Positions 29,841 through 47,276 of a stretch of 51,038 nt of DNA are shown piece after piece. The stretch is taken from assembly GCA_002428055.1 (NCBI GenBank), contig DIZY01000119.1, positions 1,855-52,892 on the forward strand, read 5' to 3'. This stretch comes from Helicobacteraceae bacterium UBA6016 (GTDB lineage Bacteria > Campylobacterota > Campylobacteria > Campylobacterales > UBA6016). Each line of letters opens with the position of its first letter. Within the stretch, counting starts at the first letter, position 1. A program made the position numbers and the translations under genes. Below the pieces are notes generated by a model. The model was given only the letters and a program-made list of their open reading frames with translations, was not told the origin of the DNA and made no database searches.

Positions 29841-29924
29841 GCCGAAGTGGTGGAATGGTAGACGCGCTCGACTCAAAATCGAGTATCGAGAGATGTGGGG
29901 GTTCGAGTCCCCCCTTCGGCACCA
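29841..29924 (+). tRNA. tRNA-Leu (anticodon CAA)
   Basis: Folds by eye as acceptor GCCGAAG/CTTCGGC, anticodon stem CTCGA/TCGAG with loop CTCAAAA, a long variable arm, T-arm GGGGG-TTCGAGT-CCCCC and an encoded CCA. Confidence 0.9.
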
Positions 29925-30033
29925 TCTATAGTTTTCAAACAATCCCAAAAAGACCTTTCAACCCCTTATAAATCAAGCTTCTAGCAACTTTTTAGTTTCA
30001 CAGCGTTTCAAAATAATTTGCAAAAATCTAAGT

Positions 30034-30060
30034 TTTTTGGTACATTCTTTGGTACATATT
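30034..30060 (+). repeat. left arm-type repeat block (2 x TTGGTACAT); inverted copies at 30067-30073 and 30089-30100
   Basis: TTTTTGGTACATTCTTTGGTACATATT matches the block at 35674-35700 at 22 of 27 positions. ATGTACCAA at the integrase start is the exact reverse complement of TTGGTACAT. Confidence 0.6.
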
Positions 30061-30088
30061 TAAAAAGTACCAAAAAAATCCATCTAGG

Positions 30089-31143
30089 ATGTACCAAAAA
30101 ATGCCAAAACTTACTACACCTCTCACAGACACACAAATCAAAAATTTAAAACCAAAAGAAAAAGATTACACTTTGGCGGACGGTAATGGCTTGCAACTAC
30201 TCGTTAAGCAAAGCGGTTCAAAGCTTTGGGAGTTTAGATATACGATAGACGGTAAGCGAAAAAAAGCAAGTTTTGGTACATATCCGAATGTACCATTAGC
30301 CAAGGCTAGAGAAAAAGCTTCGATGTACCAAAAAATGTTAAAAGACGAAATAGACCCGATAGAAAACAAACGAGAGAAAAAACAATTAAAAAAAGATGAA
30401 GTCGAAAAACAAGTAAATACATTTGAGCTGGTTTTTAATAAATGGGTTGAAGTTAAACGAGGCAAAATCACAAAAGGTTCAGCCGATAAGCTACAAAGAA
30501 CATTTGAGCTTTACTTTTTACCGATTATCGGTCAAAAGCCAATCACGGAAATATCCAAACAGGAATACATAGACCTCATTTTGCGAATGAGGGATAAAGG
30601 CATACATTACTACGCCCATAAAACAAAAGGAATGTTGCAACAATTTCTAAATTACCTAGAAGAGACTAATATATTAGAAAATGCACCGCAATTAAGACTT
30701 GAAAACGCACTACCAAAACCAAAAGAAACCAACTACCCACATATTACGGATTTAAGAGAGCTAGGAGAGCTTTTAAGAGCGATTGACGGTTATCAGGGAG
30801 ATATATCTACAAAATACGCCCTTATGCTTGCACCGCTTGTTTTTGTGCGTCCAGCAAATATTCGTTTTATGGAGTGGAATGAGATAGATTTTGAAAAAGG
30901 TATTTGGAAAATATCAGCCGACAAAATGAAAGTGCGTTCTCCTCATATTGTGCCGCTAAGTAAGCAAGCTATCAAAATACTAAAAGAGATAAAAAAAGTT
31001 AACGGAGTTTATAAGTATGTGTTTGTAAGCCCCGTAAGCACATTAAAACCGCTTATAACCATGCGGAGTATCTCAAAGAGAGAAAAGAGCTTATGCAATG
31101 GTGGGCGGACTTTTTGGATAAAATCAAGCAAATTAACAACTAG
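30089..31143 (+). pseudogene. int: P4/CP4-57-type tyrosine integrase with internal out-of-frame deletion
   Basis: The N-terminus LTDTQIKNLKPKEKDYTLADGNGLQLLVKQSGSKLWEFRY is the typical arm-binding domain, and the box I Arg context VFVRPANIRFMEW is present. After ...FVSPVSTLKP the frame changes, and AYNHAEYLKERKELMQWWADFLDKIKQINN* is read in another frame. The HxxR box and second His are missing. Confidence 0.8.
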
Positions 31144-31145
31144 GT

Positions 31146-31958
31146 TTATAATAGTGTTTTGTCTGCTTTTTCTTTCATAAAGTGCAATATTTCATCGTAA
31201 TCGCTTGAATCAATAAGTCTTAAATCTTCTTTTGAAGCCTGCTCTTTGACGAATCTTATTTTATCAGTAAGTCCACTAGTATTGCCGATAATTGGCATAT
31301 ATATAATCTTGTCGGTAATGGTGCTATCATGTAAATGTCTAAGCAATAGTGCATTTTGAAATGTATCCCAAAAATCAACATGCAATGATATTAATTGCGT
31401 AGCAACAACTGGGGTATTTTTAGACATCGACACAAGACTAATTTCTTTATCCTCGCCGAACACTGTAGGCAGATGCTTCCGTGTCTTTAGTTCTTTGCTC
31501 CATTTTTTTTCTTTTATCACATTTTGTATGTTAGTAATTAATTTTGTTTTTGAAAATGGGTTTATGTTTCTTTTCTGCCCTGTTTTTTTAGATAAAGATA
31601 CTTTTGCGGCAAATAGAGCATTAAGCTCTTCTTCCATGCTTAGTGAAGTAATAATATGTTTTGACGGCTCTAAGACAGTTAAAGAGCGAGAAAGTTCACC
31701 AATACAAATTTCACCATTTTGAGATTGACGTTTTTGTAAAATCTCGATTGCATATTCAATATTGTCATGTTCCGATAATTGAAAGCAAGATTTGATGTTT
31801 TTAAAATTTTCAATAGTTTTTATTTTTACCTCACCAGTATCTTGATTTTTCAAAATAATACCAATATTTAATGTCTCTCCAGTATATGGCATACTTAGCC
31901 TTATTACAGACAATAGAGCTTTTGAATTTTTGTTAATATCTGCATAGTTAATAGGCAT
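31146..31958 (-). CDS. DUF3037-like protein (270 aa)
   Basis: The N-terminal pattern LLSVIRLSMPYTGETLNIGIILKNQDTGEV resembles the DUF3037 signature (E..N.G) from memory. Its start overlaps the upstream stop (TAATG). Confidence 0.5.
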   Translation of the reverse strand: MPINYADINKNSKALLSVIRLSMPYTGETLNIGIILKNQDTGEVKIKTIENFKNIKSCFQLSEHDNIEYAIEILQKRQSQNGEICIGELSRSLTVLEPSKHIITSLSMEEELNALFAAKVSLSKKTGQKRNINPFSKTKLITNIQNVIKEKKWSKELKTRKHLPTVFGEDKEISLVSMSKNTPVVATQLISLHVDFWDTFQNALLLRHLHDSTITDKIIYMPIIGNTSGLTDKIRFVKEQASKEDLRLIDSSDYDEILHFMKEKADKTLL

Positions 31959-32791
31959 TATTTGAATACCATCCTTCCAGATTTAAGATTTTTATAACAA
32001 GTAACATTCGTAACGCATGCGTTATAAATATTTTCTTTTCTTCCCTTTAAAAATATTTCTAAATTTTCAGCTTCTGTTTTATTCATATCGGATATATTTA
32101 CGCATATATCGACCATATCATCAATATCCATATCTTCTATTTTTCCTATGGCCATGGAATAATTAAAAATTTCATTAAATGAAAACTCTTCTATTATGTC
32201 ATATAAAATTTTGCCATGTGTTGCTGGATAATGGCAGTTATAATTCATATTTTCAAGTAAAATATCTTTGAATTCATAACCAGCAAAAATTCTATCCGCA
32301 TCTATAGAATTGTAAAAAGTTTTTTTATTTTTATTTTTTACTATTAAATGATTGTTTGCATGCCTATCATAATTTCTAAGATATTGGTCGTATGAATATA
32401 TTGACAGAAACTTTTCATAGTTAGAAACATCAAATAATTCACTTATAAATTCGTCATAGTTAAACCATTTTACAATATCGTCATACCATTCGACGCCAAA
32501 ATAATAGCCGCTTTTAAATGGCAATACACCTGTAATCTCGGTTTTAATATCATCAATTAGATATTTATCTATTTGTATAATTTTACCACTCGGGACAGGA
32601 ACGCCAATTATTGAGGCTACATAATGGGCTATAAATTCTTTGGGATTTGATATATTAAACTTTACTTGATAGTTTGTATTGTCTGCTCTTGCGATTGCAT
32701 AGTCAGATGTTCCACCGCGCTCTTTACGGTACTCCTTAAGCCATCCGGTAGCAACTGAAACATCATAACTTATCACGGTGTATATCCCCAA
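31958..32791 (-). CDS. HipA-like serine/threonine kinase (short form)
   Basis: Catalytic-loop-like YDRHANNHLI (D142, H144, N147) and downstream IDADRIF. The N-terminus has an ...YQVKF... lysine context and IIGVPVP. No ATG is available; the start is TTG 32791 or GTG 32776. Confidence 0.6.
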   Translation of the reverse strand: MGIYTVISYDVSVATGWLKEYRKERGGTSDYAIARADNTNYQVKFNISNPKEFIAHYVASIIGVPVPSGKIIQIDKYLIDDIKTEITGVLPFKSGYYFGVEWYDDIVKWFNYDEFISELFDVSNYEKFLSIYSYDQYLRNYDRHANNHLIVKNKNKKTFYNSIDADRIFAGYEFKDILLENMNYNCHYPATHGKILYDIIEEFSFNEIFNYSMAIGKIEDMDIDDMVDICVNISDMNKTEAENLEIFLKGRKENIYNACVTNVTCYKNLKSGRMVFK

Positions 32792-32838
32792 ATAGTAGCT
32801 TTTTTCATTATAGCAATTCTATACTAAGCAAAAGATGA

Positions 32839-33024
32839 CTAGTGCTCGCTACTAATCTTTTTTATGTATTCTTGAATCTCGCTAAGCTTCCACGCTATTG
32901 TTCTAACTGTTATTTTATAATGCTTTGGAAATTGACCTGTCTTTTCATAACGCCAAATAGTTGTTTTCGATAAACCTGTCATTTGGATAACAAGAGGAAG
33001 TCTTAAAAGTCTTTCATTCGTAAT
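32839..33024 (-). CDS. AlpA-family phage/island transcriptional regulator (no canonical start codon)
   Basis: The translation (I)TNERLLRLPLVIQMTGLSKTTIWRYEKTGQFPKHYKITVRTIAWKLSEIQEYIKK matches the AlpA HTH pattern. The frame contains no ATG, GTG or TTG before the HTH. An ATT at 33022-33024 with AAGG upstream is the only start candidate. Confidence 0.55.
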   Translation of the reverse strand: MTNERLLRLPLVIQMTGLSKTTIWRYEKTGQFPKHYKITVRTIAWKLSEIQEYIKKISSEH

Positions 33025-33032
33025 TTCAACCT

Positions 33033-34340
33033 TTATAAAATATGTTCACAAACTGGACTATCAGGGTAATACTCTTTCAAAAGTGACTTTATATAGCCAC
33101 CTCTTATCTCATACTCTGTTTTTTGATACGCAGGATTACAGCTAGTCGCTCTTTCATTTGTACTAGCTATAAAAATATTATGTATTAAATCAACCCGTTT
33201 AATTTGCGTGTTGTCTTTGGTTTTTATAACTCTAGTTTCGTACTCGCCGCTTTTAAACTCTCGCAATAGAAAAAACAGTTCTTTCCGCCTATCATCATCG
33301 CCTATTAAGTAATGCCGTATTTTTCGCCATACGGTAAGTTTTAGCGGTCTAAAGGTCTTTAGCGAGAAAGAGAAAGGACGAAGCCCTATGAGTGCAAAAA
33401 TATGTTGATAGCCTAAAGCATCATCGTTTAGCCTATCTCTTCAAGGTTTTGTTTTGTCGGAGCGAGTTTTAAAGATATATTTACAAATATAGCCCGTTAT
33501 TTTTTCATTTAGATTTTCGCTACTGTCGAAAAAGCGTATAAAAAATCCTGCGCCGTTTCTAAACTTTTTACAGTCGGCATCATCTCTTTTTAAATAATAC
33601 TCGTCACTATAGTAATGCGATTTTTTCTGATTTTTTGTTTTCTCTAGCTTTAAATGCCCTAAGACTATATTTTTATATTTCGGGTCTATTTTGATAACAG
33701 TGCGCCCTATTTCTGCATTATTCCATTTTCTAATAAGTAGGTCTACATAGGCGATTATATGCTCTTTTGTATCGGGCACAAATTCAAGAGAGTGCAAGTG
33801 CAGATTTAAGTTTTCGTGCAATTCATAAACTAACAGATAATTATAATCTAGACAATGCACCCAATCACTTTTATAGCCTAGTTGTTTTTTTCGCCTCTCC
33901 GTAGGCTCTTTGAAGAAATTATCATCTCTTATTGATTTTCTAAACTTTCTAAATGCTTTTTTCTGTTCTCTCATACATTCGTCAAATTCTGTTATCGTGT
34001 ATGTTTTTGGCAGTTTATATTCGCTGGTAAGTGTATATGTTACGTAAATAGGTGTCTGATTGTTTGTTTTTGTAGTTTTCAAAAAAGCGTCAAGCATATT
34101 TTGCAATTCCGCTTTTGCATTTTTAGCATTTTGTTCGTGCATAATTTGCAAATTACTAACCCATCCGCCAATTGAGTTAAACAAATCGACACCTACACGA
34201 TAGGTCTGATTTTTCAGCTCCTGTTCATATCTCTCATTTTTCATATATTCTAAAAGAGTTTTAGAATTAAAAATAAATTCATCTTTTGAATATTTTTCAC
34301 TAAGAGAAATGCGCTTTTTTGAAGATTGTATACTACACAT
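33033..34340 (-). pseudogene. HUH rolling-circle replication initiator-like gene split by one in-frame TGA
   Basis: HUH motif LHLHSLEF and double-Tyr motif GYICKYIFK (YxxKY, as in phiX174 A-type Reps). The stop at 33441-33443 is followed by 58 open codons in the same frame, which run into ORF 33033-33266. The likely real start is ATG 34340. Confidence 0.6.
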
Positions 34341-34411
34341 TTTTTCTATTTCCTTTTTATCTTTTTGCTTCCTACCGCTACTTAAATATAAGAACTCTAG
34401 GGAGCGGCTGC

Positions 34412-34453
34412 GCCGCACACTCTTCGTCGCACAGCTCCGAAAGAGAGTGCGGC
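34412..34453. promoter_or_regulatory. GC-rich imperfect hairpin in the Rep / RHH divergent intergenic region
   Basis: GCCGCACACTCTT-N16-AAGAGAGTGCGGC pairs at 12 of 13 positions. It is a conspicuous GC-rich patch in otherwise AT-rich DNA. Confidence 0.5.
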
Positions 34454-34566
34454 TTGCAAATGTAGTTTTAAATATTTGTAATGTAATTACATTAGCAATC
34501 TATCGTATTTATTTAGTAATGTCAAGACAAAATGTGCTAATGTAGTTGAAAAAGTAGGAGTTAGTA

Positions 34567-34833
34567 ATGGAAAAGCAAAAACGAAAAGAAGTTACTAGGG
34601 ATATTCTTATACAAATAAGAGTTAGTGAGGAAGAAAATCAAAAGATTGAAGAACTTGCGGAAAGGTTGAAAATGAATAAGTCAAAACTAATTAGAAACAT
34701 TGTGCTTGGTGAAATTGAAGATGGGCTTCTTGTAAATATAGGTGCGCTACCAATTATGCAAAAAGCTTTTGCGTTTTATCAAAAAAACTTTAAAGGTGTA
34801 GACTATTGGACAGAAGCTAGAAAAGATGGCTAA
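34567..34833 (+). CDS. ribbon-helix-helix (CopG/MobC-like) protein
   Basis: 88 aa. RHH pattern DILIQIRVSEEENQKIEELAERLKMNKSKLIRNIVLG. The stop overlaps the next gene's start by 8 nt. Confidence 0.6.
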   Translation: MEKQKRKEVTRDILIQIRVSEEENQKIEELAERLKMNKSKLIRNIVLGEIEDGLLVNIGALPIMQKAFAFYQKNFKGVDYWTEARKDG

Positions 34834-35587
34834 TAAAAATGATGATAAGTTTGTGCTTTTCTTGGATATTTTAGGATTTTCGGAACTGGTATTAAACAAC
34901 ACACCTGAACAATTACGCCAATTATATGATAGTGAACTACATCAAACACTCGGAGCGGTAAACTTTTTATCGGCTGCTTTTTTCAAAAAACCAACAAATG
35001 TTACCGTTGTTGCAAAAGAAAGTCACTCATTGACAGATGTGATTCAAGACGACTTGGGATTTCATGTCATGTCAGACAGCGTGCTTATTTGGAGCAAAGA
35101 TGTTAGTTTAAATTCACTCGAAAATATTACTAACTATGCAGCGATTCTATTAAGTATGTTGTTTGTGCTGGGTTTGCCATGCAGGGGTGGTTTATCCATA
35201 GGCAAAATTCAGTTTATAGAGCTACCATTAAACGGCAGACTTCAACCAAATGTTGTCGGAAGCGGAGTTGTAAATGCCCATAGACTTGAGGCGGGACAAG
35301 AATGGATGGGTTGTGCCGTTGGAAGTGAATGTTTTGATGGTTTTAAGGAGAAAGAGTTAAAGTCTTTAACTGATAAAAATAAGGCGATTGTTGGATATGA
35401 AATTCCATACAATGAAAATGCAAAATATAAAATGAAGCATGCTATAAACTGGACAATCTTCAATATGGTGATAGAAGATAATATTGAATTTTTCTATAAT
35501 AAATTTTCAAGACACAATAAAACAATAAGCGCTAGAACAGAATTAAAAATTTCAAATACATACAAGTTTTTAAAAGATATGCTTTAA
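34826..35587 (+). CDS. class III nucleotidyl-cyclase-like protein (253 aa)
   Basis: FLDILGFS (D14), HVMSDSVLIW (D84), CRGGLSIGKI (R120) and GSGVVNAHRLE (N150, R153) follow the order of the metal, substrate and transition-state motifs of adenylate/guanylate cyclase catalytic domains. Confidence 0.55.
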   Translation: MANKNDDKFVLFLDILGFSELVLNNTPEQLRQLYDSELHQTLGAVNFLSAAFFKKPTNVTVVAKESHSLTDVIQDDLGFHVMSDSVLIWSKDVSLNSLENITNYAAILLSMLFVLGLPCRGGLSIGKIQFIELPLNGRLQPNVVGSGVVNAHRLEAGQEWMGCAVGSECFDGFKEKELKSLTDKNKAIVGYEIPYNENAKYKMKHAINWTIFNMVIEDNIEFFYNKFSRHNKTISARTELKISNTYKFLKDML

Positions 35588-35673
35588 ATAAGAAAAACAC
35601 AAAAATTATGCGGCTATCCTTTTTATTACTTACGCCGCACCCTTCGGGCTTGTAATTTTTGTTATAGATTTTG

Positions 35674-35700
35674 TTTTTGGTACATTTTAAGGTACATTAT
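35674..35700 (+). repeat. right arm-type repeat block
   Basis: TTTTTGGTACATTTTAAGGTACATTAT, 57 nt upstream of the attR-like core. Confidence 0.6.
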
Positions 35701-35756
35701 AAAAAAATCAAATCGTATAAAAGCCTTTAAAACAGTGCTTTAAAGGCTAAAATATT

Positions 35757-35776
35757 AGTCTCCCCTTCGCACCATC
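35757..35776 (+). repeat. attR-like copy of the tRNA-Leu 3' end
   Basis: AGTCTCCCCTTCGCACCATC versus the tRNA's AGTCCCCCCTTCGGCACCATC: one mismatch and one 1-nt gap. Confidence 0.65.
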
Positions 35777-36094: not shown

Positions 36095-36613
36095 ATGAAA
36101 AGAACAGTTGAATCTATCCTGAAAATAGCCCTTGATACTTTTCCAGTGGTACTCATCAGCGGATCAAGGCAGGTTGGTAAGTCAACACTGGCGCTTGAAA
36201 ACTTCGCAAACTATCTTACATTTGACGATGGAGAGCTGAGGCTTTATGCAAAAGAAAACCCAAAGGCATTTTTGAAAAATATAGAGCTACCTATATGTCT
36301 TGATGAGATACAAAAAGTACCGACATTGCTAGAATATATCAAAATTCAAATAGACTCAAATAGAGCCAATGGCTTACAGGTAGCTCAAATGTGCTAGACA
36401 ACAAGGACAGTAAAGACACCCTTGCGGGCAGGCTTTGCGAGCTCAGGCTCCATTCGCTAAGCCTCAAAGAAAAAAACGACAAACCAGACGAGAATGTAAT
36501 AGAAAAACTGCACAAAAAACTCTAGGCGTGGTGTTTTATAACGGCGATATAGTGGTAGAGTTTGGCGATGATCTAGTAGCAGTTCCGTTCGCACTTTTTT
36601 ATAAGAGGCTTTG
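36095..36613 (+). pseudogene. remnant of an AAA+ ATPase (DUF4143/COG1373-type)
   Basis: The N-terminus carries Walker A, ISGSRQVGKST. After about 100 aa the frame shifts (..LTGSSNVLDNKDSKDTLAGRLCELRLHSLSLKE). A third frame then encodes the typical C-terminal end, GVVFYNGDIVVEFGDDLVAVPFALFY. Most of the middle is missing. Confidence 0.6.
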
Positions 36614-36717
36614 AGAGGGCTGAGTTATCAAGCAAATTGAATTATGAATACCAAAAATATCTCCATTAATCTATTAAATAATCTGGGGTTGACGAATCAG
36701 TTTGCACTGGCAATTTT

Positions 36718-44327: not shown

Positions 44328-46354
44328 TTACGGCGCCATACAACTTTGTACCGCTAAACAAAGAGGTCTTTTATCCAGAGTGGAGCGAACAGGTGAGCCA
44401 TGATACTCCGTTTGAGGATGGGGAGAGCGGGATGCTGGAGATAGAAATAGAAGCCGTATCACCAATCTTTATAAAGGATTCAAAAAATAAAGAAGAGTTT
44501 TGTAATCACGAAGGGGCATATTATATTCCAGGCAGTAGCGTTAAGGGTGTTATTCGAAATGTATTAGAAATTATGAGTTTTTCAAAAATGAATCCTAGTT
44601 TGGTGGATGATAAAACTTACGCCGTGAGAGATCTGAGAAACCAAAAATTATATATGAACAAGATGCGCCCACAGAATCTATTTTGCGGTTGGCTTAAAAA
44701 ATCCAGAGATGGTTATATAATAGAAGATTGCGGAGTGCCGGGGAGAATCAGTCAAGACGAGATAAGTAAAGAATTTGCTTCTAAATTTAAACATCAAAAT
44801 TTTAAAAATAAACCTGAGTTTAAAACTGCAAAGTACAAATATAGTCTGCTTGAGATGGTAAAGCTAACTCAAAAATTTGATTTTCAACGAGAAGATAAAG
44901 GGAGAAGAGTTTATATAAAAGGCGCTAAAGACGAGGGAACAATTGTGCTCACTGGTCAGGCAAGCGGCAGAAAAGACAATGGCAGGATCGGTGATGCAAA
45001 GATATATGAGTTTATATTTTTCAAATCAAAAAGTGAAATACATGTAGAAAAAGAAGTTGTAGACAACTTCAAGTTTGCCTATTTTGATGAAAGAAAAACA
45101 GAGCCAAAAGAGTCTCCGGATTGGGCGTATTGGAAAAATAAGCTAAAAAAAGGCGAAAAAATACCTGTGTTTTTTCAAAAAGAAAATAATCGGATAAAAC
45201 ATTTTGGATTGTCCTATCTGTACAAGCTGCCATACAGCGGTAGCGTTTACGACGGCATTTACGATATTCATTTTGATGATAGACTTGATTTGGCGCAAAC
45301 TGTTTTTGGGCATACAGAGAAAGAGAGTGCGCTCAAAGGCAGAGTTCAGTTTAGTCATTTTAAAGCCCTGAAAGGCACCACGCCATTGCCCCCTAGAACA
45401 GAGACATTGGGCACGCCAAGGGCTTCGTACTACCCATTTTATGTGCTTCAAGAAGACGGGAATACTTATTCGACCTTTATGGACGAAGATTTTGTGCTAG
45501 CCGGCAGAAAAAGATACCCAATACATAAAAATATGCCAAACGAAACTAAAATCACATACAATCCGCAAAGCTCTACAGGAACATCATTTAGACCACTTAA
45601 ACAAGGTGCAATATTTAAGGGTAAAATCATCTATCACAACCTTAAAAAAGCAGAACTTGGAGCGTTGATTTCAGCTTTTACTTTCCATAATACGCCAAAT
45701 TCATTTCATAATATCGGCATAGCAAAATCACTGGGATATGGTAAATGTAAAATCAAAATTATTTCAAATGTTCAGACTAAAGAATATATGTGCGTATTTG
45801 AGAAAGCAATGAGGACACAATGTTCAGATTGGCTACAATCACCGCAAATCACAGAGCTTTTAACAATGTCAAGCGAACAAAATAACCGCGGCTCTTCAGA
45901 GTTAAAATATATGGAGCTTCCAGACTTTGCAAATGCAAAAAGAGAGACAGAGTATCTAAAACAATATAGCAAGCTCGACGGGATAAACAAAATTATTGCC
46001 AAAAGTATAGTCTCGTCCGAAAGGACTACTGATTCAGACTCTCGCGCTGAAACAAAGTCGGCAGCTGCCCAGGTAGGTAACAAGCCGAACACACAACATC
46101 AAAAACCAAAACCAACAAACGAAACTTGGCAAGATAGAATGATAAGAATGGCAAAGACAAATGCCGCAAACCCAATCGCCGGTATTCTTGCTGATTTGCA
46201 GAACGGACCGCCTGCATACAAGGGTCATGAAAAAGATGTTGCGAATAAACTAAAAGAGCAGATGAAAAAAACAGGAAAATGGCAAGAGGAGCCGCCAAAA
46301 GAAGGCAAACACGATAACTACAAGCTAACGCAAAAAGTTATGAAATATTTATAG
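44324..46354 (+). CDS. cas7: Cas7-insertion RAMP protein (TIGR03986-like) with Lys-rich C-terminal tail
   Basis: N-terminus ITAPYNFVPLNKE and YIPGSSVKGVIRNVLE. A G-rich IGIAKSLGYGKCKI loop lies near aa 480. About 130 further residues are polar, Lys-rich and helical. Confidence 0.75.
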   Translation: MITAPYNFVPLNKEVFYPEWSEQVSHDTPFEDGESGMLEIEIEAVSPIFIKDSKNKEEFCNHEGAYYIPGSSVKGVIRNVLEIMSFSKMNPSLVDDKTYAVRDLRNQKLYMNKMRPQNLFCGWLKKSRDGYIIEDCGVPGRISQDEISKEFASKFKHQNFKNKPEFKTAKYKYSLLEMVKLTQKFDFQREDKGRRVYIKGAKDEGTIVLTGQASGRKDNGRIGDAKIYEFIFFKSKSEIHVEKEVVDNFKFAYFDERKTEPKESPDWAYWKNKLKKGEKIPVFFQKENNRIKHFGLSYLYKLPYSGSVYDGIYDIHFDDRLDLAQTVFGHTEKESALKGRVQFSHFKALKGTTPLPPRTETLGTPRASYYPFYVLQEDGNTYSTFMDEDFVLAGRKRYPIHKNMPNETKITYNPQSSTGTSFRPLKQGAIFKGKIIYHNLKKAELGALISAFTFHNTPNSFHNIGIAKSLGYGKCKIKIISNVQTKEYMCVFEKAMRTQCSDWLQSPQITELLTMSSEQNNRGSSELKYMELPDFANAKRETEYLKQYSKLDGINKIIAKSIVSSERTTDSDSRAETKSAAAQVGNKPNTQHQKPKPTNETWQDRMIRMAKTNAANPIAGILADLQNGPPAYKGHEKDVANKLKEQMKKTGKWQEEPPKEGKHDNYKLTQKVMKYL

Positions 46355-46366
46355 TGGGAATTTAAT

Positions 46367-46984
46367 ATGGAGCAGCTATTTTTACAATGGATAAATGATC
46401 CAACCGGTGCGGTCTATGAGATTTTTAATAAGATAGTTCCTTTTGCGCTTGTGGCTATTGGTGGTTATTTTTGGGCGAGATTTAAGTTTAGGGCTAGTCA
46501 TGTGTGGCACAAGATCAAAAATGCGAATATCAACTATGACGGAGGGGCTTACAACGGTCTCATCCTAAGCCTTGGCAGTTCAAATGAGCTTCAAAAAATG
46601 ATTATTGACCAAGTAAAGCCGGAATTTGTCGGCATTATCACTGGTAATTCAGAGGCCGTGAAGCTCAGCGCTAATGACCTAAAAGATTATTCGACTCATC
46701 TCAAAATTCAGTGTGATGAGCCTCATTTTTACGCAGAGTTAGACATTGAACGGATAGAAAAAGGGTTTGATGATGTTATAGAATGGATGCTTGGCAAGGG
46801 TATCGAAAAGAAAAATATCGTTATAGACCTAACCGGCGGCAAAACCCCATTTTCGCTAGCGGCATTCAATAGCGCTAAAAGAAACGGTGTTTTTGCGGTT
46901 TATACGGATAGCGAATACGAACTCAATAAACCAAAAGCCGGAAGCCAAAAATCTATTCTGTTGACAAGGGCCGCCAATGATTAG
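46367..46984 (+). CDS. membrane-anchored CARF-only protein (Cam1-like architecture)
   Basis: 205 aa. One TM helix, IVPFALVAIGGYFWARF (aa ~23-39), is followed by a Rossmann-like domain with GLILSLGSS and the CARF motif IVIDLTGGKTPFSLAAF. No other effector domain. Confidence 0.6.
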   Translation: MEQLFLQWINDPTGAVYEIFNKIVPFALVAIGGYFWARFKFRASHVWHKIKNANINYDGGAYNGLILSLGSSNELQKMIIDQVKPEFVGIITGNSEAVKLSANDLKDYSTHLKIQCDEPHFYAELDIERIEKGFDDVIEWMLGKGIEKKNIVIDLTGGKTPFSLAAFNSAKRNGVFAVYTDSEYELNKPKAGSQKSILLTRAAND

Positions 46985-47276
46985 CTTCTCAACCTCAAGC
47001 CTAGAGCAACACTCCGCCACCCTCATCACATTTGAAGTAGAAGGTGGCGTGACGACTCCGGAAGAAGCCTTTGGCGTAGAGCTAGCTCAAATTCCATTTG
47101 ACAAAGGGGTGATACTCTCCGGGCGTGGTCCCATCTGGCTCTTTGCTCGTCTCATCCACCACTACCACCCTGCCCGCTGGATAGCGGTGCATGACCCCCG
47201 TATCGGCTACATCGTGATACAAAGCCACTGCAAAGAGCGATATGAGGGGGAGGTATTGGTGGAAGTGTTGCTTTGA
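46977..47276 (+). CDS. csx3: Csx3 (cA4 ring nuclease family Crn3)
   Basis: 99 aa. LSGRGPIWLFARLIHHYHPARWIAVHDPRIGYIVIQSH matches the Csx3 signature as I remember it. Overlaps the upstream stop by 8 nt. Confidence 0.75.
   Translation: MISFSTSSLEQHSATLITFEVEGGVTTPEEAFGVELAQIPFDKGVILSGRGPIWLFARLIHHYHPARWIAVHDPRIGYIVIQSHCKERYEGEVLVEVLL

What the first reader, a model, noticed from the sequence alone, without database searches (positions are those of the whole stretch)
34567..35587. Ribbon-helix-helix protein coupled to a class III nucleotidyl-cyclase-like protein with no effector gene
The 253-aa protein carries the cyclase catalytic-domain motifs in the right order. These are the two metal-binding Asp (FLDILGFS, MSDS), RGGLSIG and GxGVNxAxRLE. 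That is the fold used by Pycsar pyrimidine cyclases. Pycsar operons place a TIR or TM effector right after the cyclase. Here the next feature is the element's att site. The only partner is an upstream RHH protein whose stop overlaps the cyclase start by 8 nt. Options: (a) a toxin-antitoxin-like pair in which an RHH antitoxin restrains a cyclase toxin; (b) an orphan signal generator feeding an effector encoded elsewhere; (c) a cyclase-fold protein with another activity, using the ~70-aa C-terminal extension. None of these is a described system as far as I know.
Basis: partly seen in the sequence, partly recalled or inferred. Interest (0 to 1): 0.7.

Follow-up and report, generated by a model that had tools for sequence, protein, structure and literature searches.

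The report
Orphan cyclase-fold cargo gene on integrative element
A small mobile element inserted at a tRNA gene carries, as swappable cargo behind its own regulator gene, a member of a large uncharacterised protein family that has the fold of nucleotide cyclases but lacks part of their catalytic kit; the regulator is not its dedicated partner.

Summary
Both ORFs are real: the RHH gene (34567-34833) and the 253-aa gene (34826-35587) overlap by 8 nt, and an att repeat follows.

The AF2 model (pLDDT 87) matches only class III nucleotidyl cyclases among the top 50 PDB hits. No Pfam, NCBIfam or PADLOC model matches. The family is large (2,329 clusters at 50% identity). It keeps the two metal-binding Asp (152/152 sequences) and an Arg. 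It does not keep the cyclase transition-state Asn/Arg or the base-specifying residue.

The toxin-antitoxin reading fails:
- The RHH is a backbone gene of a family of roughly 4-6 kb tRNA-integrating elements (integrase, AlpA, rolling-circle Rep, divergent RHH). In five relatives it has no cyclase-like gene downstream.
- One relative is ~93% identical up to the last RHH codons and then carries different DNA.
- None of ~110 other loci encoding family members has this RHH, and none has a conserved neighbour or effector. It is therefore not a Pycsar remnant.

Family members sit in prophages, phage genomes, type I R-M operons, next to AbiE, and fused to DUF262, TPR or wHTH domains.

Best reading: a stand-alone, probably catalytic, cyclase-fold nucleotidyltransferase carried as conflict or accessory cargo and transcribed from the RHH promoter. 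Its activity is unknown.

The parts
29841..29924 (+). tRNA-Leu(CAA), the integration target. The attL core 29906-29926 overlaps its 3' end.
   Evidence: ARAGORN; local alignment to 35757-35776
30034..30066 (.). Left arm-type repeat (GGTACAT x2) upstream of the integrase gene
   Evidence: Direct repeat D1, 82% identical to 35674-35706
30089..31180 (+). Tyrosine integrase of the element
   Evidence: Pfam Arm-DNA-bind_3, Phage_int_M and Phage_integrase on the called gene; 71% identical to the integrase fragment of L098
31146..32791 (-). Cargo slot 1: a 270-aa ORF plus a HipA_2-like 277-aa ORF. Relatives L098 and L101 have nothing at this position.
   Evidence: Pfam HipA_2 E=1.5e-8; gene orders of the relatives
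32839..32982 (-). AlpA-like excisionase/regulator (backbone gene)
   Evidence: 45-47% identical to the AlpA (PF05930) genes of L098 and L101
33441..34418 (-). Rolling-circle Rep-like HUH protein (backbone gene), transcribed divergently from the RHH gene
   Evidence: Motifs IYVTYTL, HLHSL and GYICKYIFK align with the 433- and 439-aa proteins of L098 and L101; Pfam REP_ORF2-G2P is only E=0.04
34454..34547 (.). Four copies of an ~13-nt half-site, including the palindrome at 34474-34499. Probable RHH operator in the divergent promoter region.
   Evidence: Inverted repeats I2-I4; conserved in L127. RHH binding is inferred.
34567..34833 (+). Ribbon-helix-helix protein, 88 aa (backbone regulator, NikA/CopG-like)
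   Evidence: Pfam NikA-like, DUF6290 and RHH_1 above threshold; homologues stand alone in L098, L100, L101, L127 and one JGI contig
34826..35587 (+). Cargo slot 2: the 253-aa class III cyclase-fold protein. D14, D84 and R120 are conserved family-wide.
   Evidence: AF2 pLDDT 87; Foldseek; family of 2,329 clusters; conservation
35674..35706 (.). Right arm-type repeat (GGTACAT x2)
   Evidence: Direct repeat D1
35757..35776 (.). attR: an imperfect copy of the tRNA-Leu 3' end, marking the end of the ~5.9-kb element
   Evidence: 19 of 21 matches with one gap; score 31 against shuffle mean 17.6 (sd 2.4, max 29)

Best explanation
The 253-aa gene is cargo on a ~5.9-kb integrative element (29906-35776) inserted at tRNA-Leu.

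The element backbone is integrase, AlpA, a rolling-circle Rep-like protein and a divergently transcribed RHH regulator. The RHH probably binds the repeated half-sites between its own gene and rep. The slot just downstream of the RHH gene holds variable cargo. Here the cargo's ATG lies inside the last RHH codons, so it is transcribed, and probably translationally coupled, from the RHH promoter. The RHH is not a cognate antitoxin.

The cargo belongs to a large, uncharacterised, stand-alone family of ~250-aa proteins with a class III nucleotidyl-cyclase-like palm fold. The family retains the two-metal Asp dyad and a phosphate-binding-type Arg. It has replaced the cyclase transition-state Asn/Arg and the base-specifying residues with its own conserved residues, several of them in the region C-terminal to residue ~155 (conserved positions E155, Q158, W160, Y191, P194, W209, K232, N244, T245).

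Inferred function: a metal-dependent NTP-utilising enzyme that acts alone, without a dedicated receptor or effector. It most likely serves as a phage- or MGE-conflict (exclusion or abortive-infection-type) module. Its output would be either consumption of NTPs or a nucleotide product that is itself harmful or is read by ubiquitous cell components.

Shown: gene structure, element boundaries, backbone-versus-cargo status, fold, conservation pattern and absence of a conserved partner. Inferred: operator binding, catalysis and the conflict role.
For: Backbone versus cargo:
- RHH homologues (60-92% identical) in L098, L100, L101, L127 and one JGI contig sit in the same position: integrase, AlpA, small ORF, Rep-like gene, small ORF, divergent RHH. 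None has a cyclase-like gene after it.
- L127 DNA is ~93% identical to the window through the operator and the RHH gene. Similarity is lost within the last ~5 RHH codons, and a different ORF follows.
- Arm-type repeats and att flank the element.
- An RHH-family HMM scanned over six-frame ORFs of all 127 loci hits only the window's own copies and the RHH-only elements.

Fold:
- The AF2 model has pLDDT 87 and pTM 0.86, with the strand/helix order expected of a cyclase domain.
- The top 50 PDB Foldseek hits are all class III cyclases, probability 1.00.
- The only PDB sequence hits at E<10 are cyclases, aligned on the beta1-alpha1 motif.
- UniProt names the Legionella bozemanae member 'Guanylate cyclase domain-containing protein'.

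Family:
- 2,329 clusters at E<=1e-3, mostly ~250 aa and matched over full length.
- D14, G17 and D84 are invariant in 152 of 152 sequences; R120 is kept in 151 of 152.

Stand-alone status and conflict-type context:
- No recurrent neighbour in 80 GTDB loci.
- Neighbours include OLD/GajA/PtuA-like ATPases, HsdR, Schlafen-AlbA2 and integrases.
- The gene lies inside type I R-M operons in L032, L077 and L078.
- It lies directly after AbiEii in L094 and L096, and beside the lysis genes of a P2-like prophage.
- 25 IMG/VR contigs carry it among terminase, portal, HNH, integrase and holin genes. phrog_23933 matches 41 of 42 members.
- Fusions to DUF262, TPR and wHTH make this domain the only enzymatic module in those proteins.
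Against: - No biochemical or phenotypic data exist for any member. I found none in the literature searches.
- No PADLOC model matches.
- The defence-type neighbours are a minority of the 136 immediate neighbours (the largest family counts are 3 members each). This was not tested against a background rate.
- TM-scores to cyclases are modest (0.44-0.59 normalised to the target, rmsd ~6 A).
- Profile comparison with a canonical cyclase aligns only the first motif (hhalign probability 1.2%). Homology therefore rests on predicted structure.
- The 8-nt overlap and the RelB/DUF6290-type hits of the RHH would also fit a toxin-antitoxin pair.
- Loss of the Asn/Arg pair could mean a non-catalytic nucleotide binder, as in PDB 6yii.
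Confidence: 0.5

Rival explanations
1. Toxin-antitoxin-like pair: the RHH protein is an antitoxin that binds and restrains the cyclase-fold protein, which is toxic when freed.
For: - The gene order is antitoxin first, with an 8-nt overlap.
- The RHH hits DUF6290 above threshold. It also hits the RelB antitoxin model at E=5e-7, which is below that model's cut-off.
- The RHH has a ~40-residue C-terminal region beyond the DNA-binding fold.
Against: - The same RHH, at the same length and with the same C-terminal region, is conserved in five elements that lack the cyclase-like gene. One of them is ~93% identical in DNA up to the RHH stop.
- None of ~110 other family-member loci has this RHH.
- Genes upstream of family members are heterogeneous: PIN, YaaC-like, AbiEii or none.
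Confidence: 0.07
2. Orphan signal generator: the protein makes a cyclic or linear nucleotide messenger that is read by a receptor or effector encoded elsewhere in the host, or by a generic cNMP-binding protein. The mobile element uses it to manipulate host physiology or to exclude competitors.
For: - The fold is cyclase-like with an intact metal-binding dyad.
- There is no adjacent effector.
- The gene is carried by phages and integrative elements.
Against: - The family spans Bacteroidota, Bacillota, Legionella, Planctomycetota and archaea, with no conserved partner. It is hard to see a common distant receptor.
- The canonical residues for 3',5'-cyclisation and for base choice are not conserved.
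- In the fusion proteins this domain is the only enzymatic, output-like module rather than the input.
Confidence: 0.2
3. Non-catalytic or anti-defence protein: a cyclase-fold nucleotide binder that sequesters NTPs or immune second messengers, or senses them, for the benefit of the mobile element.
For: - The transition-state Asn/Arg are lost.
- A class III cyclase-like ATP-binding protein without cyclase activity (PDB 6yii) is among the structural hits.
- The gene is phage- and MGE-borne.
- A type III CRISPR-Cas locus lies 3 kb away in this window.
Against: - Absolute conservation of both Asp (152 of 152) and of Arg120 (151 of 152) is what catalysis predicts, not binding alone.
- The CRISPR locus lies outside the element boundary. 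Such adjacency was not seen in other loci.
Confidence: 0.12
4. Degenerate Pycsar remnant: a PycC cyclase whose TIR or TM effector has been deleted at this locus.
For: The Pycsar cyclases 8jsz and 8jsf are among the structural matches, at ranks 25-26.
Against: - No PADLOC PycC model or Pfam Guanylate_cyc model matches at E<=1.
- Homologues are not followed by any recurrent gene in 80 genome loci, 25 viral loci or about 10 metagenome contexts.
- The whole ~250-aa architecture is conserved as a stand-alone protein in 2,329 clusters.
Confidence: 0.02

Closest known systems
Class III adenylyl/guanylyl cyclase catalytic domain (e.g. CyaC 1wc0, Cya2 2w01, CyaB 3r5g, sGC 3uvj)
   Same: - The predicted fold and order of secondary-structure elements.
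- The beta1 motif F-x-D-I-x-G-F-[ST], with the first metal-binding Asp.
- A second Asp on the beta2-beta3 hairpin.
- An R-G-x-I-x-x-G strand.

   Different: - No significant sequence-profile match.
- The alpha4 Asn/Arg pair and the base-specifying residue are not conserved, and the spacing is off by one.
- The family has its own conserved residues and a two-helix C-terminal tail.
- It always occurs alone or fused to DUF262, TPR or wHTH, never to the usual signalling input domains.
Pycsar (PycC cyclase plus TIR/TM effector)
   Same: A cyclase-fold protein in a mobile or defence-type context. PycC structures are among the Foldseek hits.
   Different: - There is no effector gene here or in the homologues.
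- No PycC HMM matches.
- The catalytic Asn/Arg are absent, so production of cCMP or cUMP by the canonical mechanism is doubtful.
Panoptes mCpol / Cas10 palm / GGDEF (other cyclase-clan palm nucleotidyltransferases used in immunity; PMC12657218)
   Same: A small palm-domain enzyme with a two-Asp metal site, carried in conflict contexts. The loss of cyclase-specific Asn/Arg would be compatible with intermolecular, GGDEF/Cas10-like chemistry (inference).
   Different: - No Pfam GGDEF or Cas10 palm hit.
- None of these is among the top 50 structural hits.
- Panoptes has a dedicated effector; this family has none.
CopG-RepB control module of rolling-circle plasmids (pMV158) and NikA/MobA RHH accessory proteins
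   Same: A small RHH protein next to a rolling-circle HUH Rep-type gene, with repeated or palindromic sites in the promoter region.
   Different: - The genes are divergent, not in a copG-repB operon.
- The element is integrative, with an integrase and AlpA.
- Binding has not been tested.
- Whether the RHH serves replication control or mobilisation is unknown.
Cargo hotspots of P2-like prophages, P4-like satellites and small integrative elements (PMC9122126)
   Same: A fixed slot next to a backbone gene holds different accessory or defence genes in otherwise near-identical elements (window against L127). A close homologue sits beside the lysis genes of a P2-like prophage.
   Different: This is a different element family, and a defence function of this cargo has not been shown.

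Membership tests
Class III nucleotidyl cyclase (Pfam PF00211 Guanylate_cyc) | Significant match to the family's sequence profile | tested here: not met
   - No PF00211 hit at E<=1 for the protein, or at E<=0.01 for 42 relatives.
- hhalign of A2 against a canonical cyclase domain from L023 gives probability 1.2%, with only beta1-alpha1 aligned.
- PDB phmmer/hmmsearch best hits are E=1.5 and 1.8.
- One member carries UniProt's automatic name 'Guanylate cyclase domain-containing protein'.
Class III nucleotidyl cyclase (Pfam PF00211 Guanylate_cyc) | Cyclase-type palm fold (beta-alpha-alpha-beta-beta-alpha-beta core) | tested here: met
   AF2 model with pLDDT 87. All top 50 Foldseek PDB hits are class III cyclases, with E from 1e-5 to 1e-3 and TM 0.44-0.59 normalised to the target.
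Class III nucleotidyl cyclase (Pfam PF00211 Guanylate_cyc) | Two metal-binding Asp (beta1 and the beta2-beta3 hairpin) | tested here: met
   D14 and D84 are invariant in 152 of 152 sequences. D14 aligns with the cyclase Asp in the phmmer and hhalign alignments. The equivalence of D84 is inferred from its position in the predicted secondary structure.
Class III nucleotidyl cyclase (Pfam PF00211 Guanylate_cyc) | Transition-state Asn and Arg on alpha4 (N-x-x-x-R) and a base-specifying Lys/Glu before the second Asp | tested here: not met
   - Position 150 is N in 47 of 152 sequences, with K, D, E and R common.
- Position 153 is R in 12 of 152.
- Position 80 is variable (L, H, I).
- The spacing in the window protein is N+3.
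Class III nucleotidyl cyclase (Pfam PF00211 Guanylate_cyc) | NTP to 3',5'-cNMP plus PPi activity, working as a head-to-tail dimer | not testable with these tools
   Needs enzymology. No multimer prediction was available.
Pycsar | Cyclase recognised by PycC models | tested here: not met
   No PADLOC hit at E<=1 for the protein, and no PycC hit at E<=0.01 for 42 relatives.
Pycsar | Adjacent effector gene (TIR, TM or cNMP-binding) | tested here: not met
   - In the window, arm repeats and attR follow the gene.
- There is no recurrent neighbour in 80 genome loci, the viral loci or the metagenome contexts.
Type II toxin-antitoxin (RHH antitoxin plus toxin) | The two genes co-occur as a conserved pair | tested here: not met
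   The RHH occurs without the gene in five related elements. The gene occurs without this RHH in every other locus examined.
Type II toxin-antitoxin (RHH antitoxin plus toxin) | A small DNA-binding antitoxin gene upstream, overlapping or coupled to the toxin gene | tested here: met
   8-nt overlap; RHH domain above Pfam thresholds.
Type II toxin-antitoxin (RHH antitoxin plus toxin) | Toxicity of the downstream protein, neutralised by direct binding of the upstream one | not testable with these tools
   Needs expression and interaction assays.
Ribbon-helix-helix regulators (CopG/NikA/MobA-like) | RHH domain, plus repeated operator sites near its own promoter | tested here: met
   Pfam NikA-like 32.5 bits (cut-off 27) and RHH_1 22 bits (cut-off 20.5). 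Four half-sites including a palindrome lie at 34454-34547 and are conserved in L127. Binding itself was not tested.
GGDEF / Cas10 palm / mCpol | Match to GGDEF, Cas10-Cmr2_palm2 or mCpol profiles or structures | tested here: not met
   No such Pfam hit, and none among the top 50 PDB structural matches.

The most novel reading that the evidence does not exclude
The family is a previously unrecognised single-protein immune or exclusion system built on a cyclase fold. It would be an enzyme that is itself the effector: on sensing infection it burns NTPs or makes a toxic or decoy nucleotide. It would need no receptor protein, and its active site would be re-engineered, with the Asp dyad kept and Asn/Arg replaced by residues from its own C-terminal region. 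Phages, prophages and small integrative elements trade it as cargo.
Probability: 0.3. Interest if true: 0.7.

Novelty: new variant of a known kind. Interest (0 to 1): 0.5.

Why it matters
Immune cyclase-fold enzymes known so far (Pycsar, Pucsar, Cas10, mCpol/Panoptes) all work through a partner effector. This family differs in four ways:
- It is large (about 2,300 clusters at 50% identity).
- It spans many bacterial phyla and some archaea.
- It keeps the metal site but not the cyclisation residues.
- It never has a conserved partner.

If it is active in conflict, it would show a receptor-free way of using this fold, and probably a new nucleotide chemistry.

The locus also gives a clean example of a cargo slot behind a backbone regulator in a small Rep-encoding integrative element. 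It is a caution as well: a small RHH gene overlapping a downstream gene is not enough to call a toxin-antitoxin pair.

Tried and rejected
- **Sequence profiles for the 253-aa protein and 42 relatives.** Pfam, NCBIfam and PADLOC gave nothing. The only family-wide hits were PHROG families of unknown function: phrog_23933 (41 of 42 members) and phrog_21097 (12 of 42).
- **PDB sequence searches** with the protein, A1 and A2 gave only insignificant cyclase hits.
- **hhalign against a canonical cyclase** found by regex in L023 was not significant.
- **tblastn against the INPHARED phages** gave no hit. Against PLSDB plasmids it gave one hit, the DUF262 fusion.
- **Conserved-neighbour search** by all-against-all BLAST, and Pfam and PADLOC scans of 136 immediate neighbours, found no recurrent partner.
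- **Pfam scan of ten overlapping or abutting upstream ORFs** gave heterogeneous results.
- **Profile search of the 5.8-billion-protein set with A2** added no names or Pfam links.
- **Literature searches** for cyclase-like stand-alone defence proteins, DUF262-cyclase fusions, DefensePredictor, domain-centric discovery, metagenomic selections and Pucsar found no description of this family.
- **PDB sequence searches** for the Rep-like, 276-aa and RHH proteins were uninformative.
- **The terminator scan** found no canonical terminator after the gene.
- **Considered and dropped:** relaxase identity for the 253-aa protein, prompted by the NikA/MobA-type hit of the RHH (no HUH or His-triad motif; cyclase fold instead); any link to the neighbouring type III CRISPR-Cas locus (outside attR); a separate model of the C-terminal region (its strands probably belong to the core sheet, so a fragment search would be noise).
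Full report
**1. What is in the sequence**

Two + strand ORFs occupy the reported interval. An 88-aa ORF runs 34567-34833 and a 253-aa ORF runs 34826-35587. They overlap by 8 nt, ATGGCTAA.

The 88-aa protein is a ribbon-helix-helix protein. It passes the Pfam gathering thresholds for NikA-like (32.5 bits, cut-off 27), DUF6290 (30.2, cut-off 27) and RHH_1 (22, cut-off 20.5). Its NCBIfam RelB and MobA hits fall below their cut-offs.

The fourth motif reads GSGVVNAHRLE, so the Asn-to-Arg spacing is one residue shorter than in the canonical cyclase motif G-x-x-V-N-x-A-x-R-x-E.

Downstream there is no further gene inside the element.
- An arm-type repeat (GGTACAT x2) at 35674-35706 pairs with one at 30034-30066.
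- A 20-nt imperfect copy of the tRNA-Leu 3' end lies at 35757-35776 and matches 29906-29926. It has 19 of 21 matches with one gap, and none of 500 shuffles reached its score.

The element therefore spans about 29906-35776, roughly 5.9 kb.

**2. The fold**

No Pfam, NCBIfam or PADLOC model matches the 253-aa protein.

An AlphaFold2 model built on 15 homologues has mean pLDDT 87 and pTM 0.86. Its strand and helix order is that of a cyclase domain. In Foldseek against the PDB, all 50 best hits are class III adenylyl or guanylyl cyclases.
- E-values run from 1e-5 to 1e-3, with probability 1.00.
- TM-scores are 0.44-0.59 normalised to the target, over 215-247 aligned columns.
- The two Pycsar cyclases, 8jsz and 8jsf, rank 25-26. 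An inactive cyclase-like ATP-binding protein, 6yii, ranks 31.

At the sequence level the only PDB hits below E=10 are cyclases (sGC beta at E=1.5, CyaB at E=1.8), and they align only on the beta1-alpha1 motif. A profile comparison with a canonical cyclase domain that happens to lie in locus L023 is not significant, at probability 1.2%. UniProt automatically names the Legionella bozemanae member 'Guanylate cyclase domain-containing protein'.

The cyclase-like fold is therefore well supported by predicted structure. Membership in the cyclase sequence family is not.

**3. The family**

A word-indexed search found only 15 close relatives. A full HMM scan of 1.84 billion cluster representatives found far more: 2,329 proteins at E<=1e-3, 640 at E<=1e-10 and 58 at E<=1e-30. 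Nearly all are ~250 aa and match over the full length, including the C-terminal part. phrog_23933, a phage protein family of unknown function, matches 41 of 42 members.

Conservation in an alignment of 152 members:

| Residue | Sequences keeping it (of 152) |
|---|---|
| D14, G17, D84 | 152 |
| R120, G145, G162 | 151 |
| S83, P118 | 150 |
| W209, F227 | 149 |
| P194 | 148 |
| W160 | 146 |
| T245 | 145 |
| K232 | 142 |
| E155 | 140 |
| Y191, N244 | 139 |
| Q158 | 138 |

The positions that would carry the cyclase transition-state residues are not conserved. Position 150 is Asn in 47 of 152 and position 153 is Arg in 12 of 152. The position of the base-specifying residue, position 80, is also variable.

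The family thus keeps a two-metal site and an Arg, but not the residues that define 3',5'-cyclisation. That pattern argues for a catalytically active enzyme with altered chemistry. It does not fit a canonical cyclase, and it does not fit a dead binder.

**4. The RHH is a backbone gene, not a partner**

Homologues of the RHH (60-92% identical, same length) occur in L098, L100, L101, L127 and one JGI contig.

Three of these (L098, L101 and the JGI contig) show the same architecture as the window: integrase, AlpA, a small ORF, a 415-439-aa protein, a small ORF, and then the RHH, transcribed divergently. L100 has a variant of this order (integrase, a 98-aa ORF, 436-aa and 346-aa proteins), and L127 is a 715-nt contig that holds only the RHH and its flanks.

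The window's integrase, AlpA, 325-aa protein and RHH are homologous to the L098 and L101 counterparts. The 325-aa protein shares three motifs with them, which are the three rolling-circle Rep motifs: IYVTYTL, HLHSL (HUH) and GYICKYIFK (YxxKY).

In all five relatives the RHH is not followed by a cyclase-like gene. In L098 and L101 the order after the RHH is ~150 nt of conserved non-coding DNA, arm-type repeats and a tRNA-3'-like att site.

L127 is decisive. Its DNA is ~93% identical to the window through the intergenic repeats and the RHH gene. Similarity is lost within the last five or so RHH codons, and a different ORF begins 136 nt downstream.

Conversely, an HMM of the RHH family scanned over six-frame ORFs of all 127 fetched loci hits only the window's own copies and these RHH-only elements. 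It hits none of the ~110 other loci that encode family members.

The intergenic region between the Rep-like gene and the RHH gene holds four copies of a ~13-nt half-site, including a palindrome at 34474-34499. They are conserved in L127. I infer that this is the RHH operator. The pair is therefore a recent juxtaposition: the cyclase-fold gene occupies a cargo slot behind the RHH and uses its promoter. The HipA_2-like pair at 31146-32791 fills a second slot, between the integrase and AlpA.

**5. No effector and no conserved neighbour**

I examined 80 loci from GTDB representative genomes. They come from Bacteroidota, Bacillota, Legionella, Planctomycetota, Verrucomicrobiota and archaea. I also examined 25 IMG/VR contigs and about ten metagenome contexts.
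- All-against-all BLAST of the neighbours found no recurrent partner.
- Pfam and PADLOC scans of 136 immediate neighbours showed no dominant family.
- ORFs that overlap or abut the start of family members are heterogeneous: PIN, YaaC-like, GIY-YIG-like or no hit.

The context is that of variable or conflict regions:
- OLD/GajA/PtuA-type ATPases, HsdR, Schlafen-AlbA2, Hypoth_Ymh and integrases among the neighbours.
- Insertion within type I R-M operons in L032, L077 and L078.
- A position directly after AbiEii in two independent close homologues, and beside the lysis genes of a P2-like prophage.
- In viral contigs, a position among terminase, portal, HNH, integrase and holin genes.

Fusion proteins join the domain to DUF262/GmrSD_N (conserved in Bacillus cereus-group plasmids), to TPR and to wHTH domains. 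In those proteins this domain is the only enzymatic module.

**6. Interpretation**

Shown:
- the gene structure and the element boundaries;
- the backbone status of the RHH and the cargo status of the cyclase-fold gene;
- the cyclase-like fold;
- retention of the Asp dyad and Arg, with loss of the Asn/Arg pair and the specificity residue;
- the absence of any conserved partner.

Inferred:
- The protein is a metal-dependent NTP-utilising enzyme that acts alone.
- It most likely works as a phage- or MGE-conflict module, whose output is NTP consumption or a nucleotide product that needs no dedicated receptor.
- Its expression is piggy-backed on the autoregulated RHH promoter.

I put about 0.5 on this overall. 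That breaks down as about 0.85 for the cargo/backbone and fold parts, and about 0.4-0.5 for the conflict role.

Rival readings:

| Rival | Probability |
|---|---|
| Orphan signal generator read elsewhere | 0.2 |
| Non-catalytic binder or anti-defence protein | 0.12 |
| RHH/cyclase toxin-antitoxin pair | 0.07 |
| Pycsar remnant | 0.02 |

**7. Novelty**

I found no description of this family in the searchable literature. It is absent from Pfam, NCBIfam and PADLOC.

It is best filed as a new variant of a known kind: a cyclase-clan palm enzyme in a mobile or conflict context, but without the effector and without the cyclisation residues that define the known systems.

The specific claim of a new RHH-cyclase two-gene system is not supported. 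The underlying family is a reasonable experimental lead. Interest 0.5.

Noticed in passing
window 31146-32791 (- strand): A 270-aa ORF and a HipA_2-like 277-aa ORF (Pfam PF20613, E=1.5e-8; weak PADLOC PDC-M66A and PDC-M03A hits) overlap by 1 nt. They lie between the integrase and AlpA, where related elements have nothing. This is a second cargo slot, possibly holding a kinase-type toxin-antitoxin or defence pair.
   Followed up: partly
window 33441-34418 (- strand): The 325-aa backbone protein has the three rolling-circle Rep motifs (IYVTYTL, HLHSL, GYICKYIFK), aligned with the 433- and 439-aa proteins of L098 and L101. The integrative element probably replicates by a rolling circle after excision. 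The Pfam REP_ORF2-G2P hit is only E=0.04.
   Followed up: partly
window 34454-34547: Four copies of a ~13-nt half-site (TTGCAAATGTAGTT / AATTACATTAGCA), including a palindrome at 34474-34499, lie between the Rep-like and RHH genes. They are conserved in L127. This is a likely RHH operator.
   Followed up: partly
L127 1-715 compared with window 34394-35110: A near-identical element (~93% DNA identity through the operator and RHH gene) carries different DNA from the RHH stop codon onward. A different ORF starts 136 nt downstream, so the post-RHH position is a variable cargo slot.
   Followed up: yes
L098 3192-3470 and L101 3653-3925: In RHH-only relatives, ~150 nt of conserved non-coding sequence follows the RHH gene, then TTGATATAC x2 arm-type repeats and a tRNA-3'-like att site. 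The conserved stretch could be an oriT or a replication origin, or could encode a small RNA.
   Followed up: no
window 36095-36614: An AAA_14 ATPase gene just outside attR is broken into three overlapping ORF fragments (36095-36397, 36391-36525, 36435-36614). It is probably a pseudogene.
   Followed up: no
window 36718-47276: A type III CRISPR-Cas locus (Cas6, Cas10 palm, several RAMP genes, from 38543 onward) lies 3 kb from the element. It is preceded by a 276-aa ORF (36718-37548, - strand) with no Pfam or PDB sequence match. The ORF's N-terminus looks CARF-like by eye only.
   Followed up: no
L091 7434-8750 (Bacillus wiedmannii plasmid p536) and cluster P0123: A 438-aa protein fuses DUF262 (GmrSD N-terminal domain) to the cyclase-fold family domain. 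That domain sits where GmrSD enzymes carry their nuclease domain. The fusion is conserved across Bacillus cereus-group strains.
   Followed up: partly
L094 133-2437 and L096 1198-3821: In two independent close homologues, the family gene lies directly downstream of an AbiEii nucleotidyltransferase toxin gene. In L094 an unannotated 162-aa ORF lies between them, overlapping the start of the family gene and abutting the AbiEii stop. In L096 a DUF6088 AbiEi-like gene lies upstream of AbiEii.
   Followed up: no
L100 8368-13804: In one RHH-only relative, the RHH is followed on the opposite strand by AAA_35/TPR, Mrr_cat-like and KwaA (Kiwa) genes. This is either further defence cargo or a flanking defence island.
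   Followed up: no
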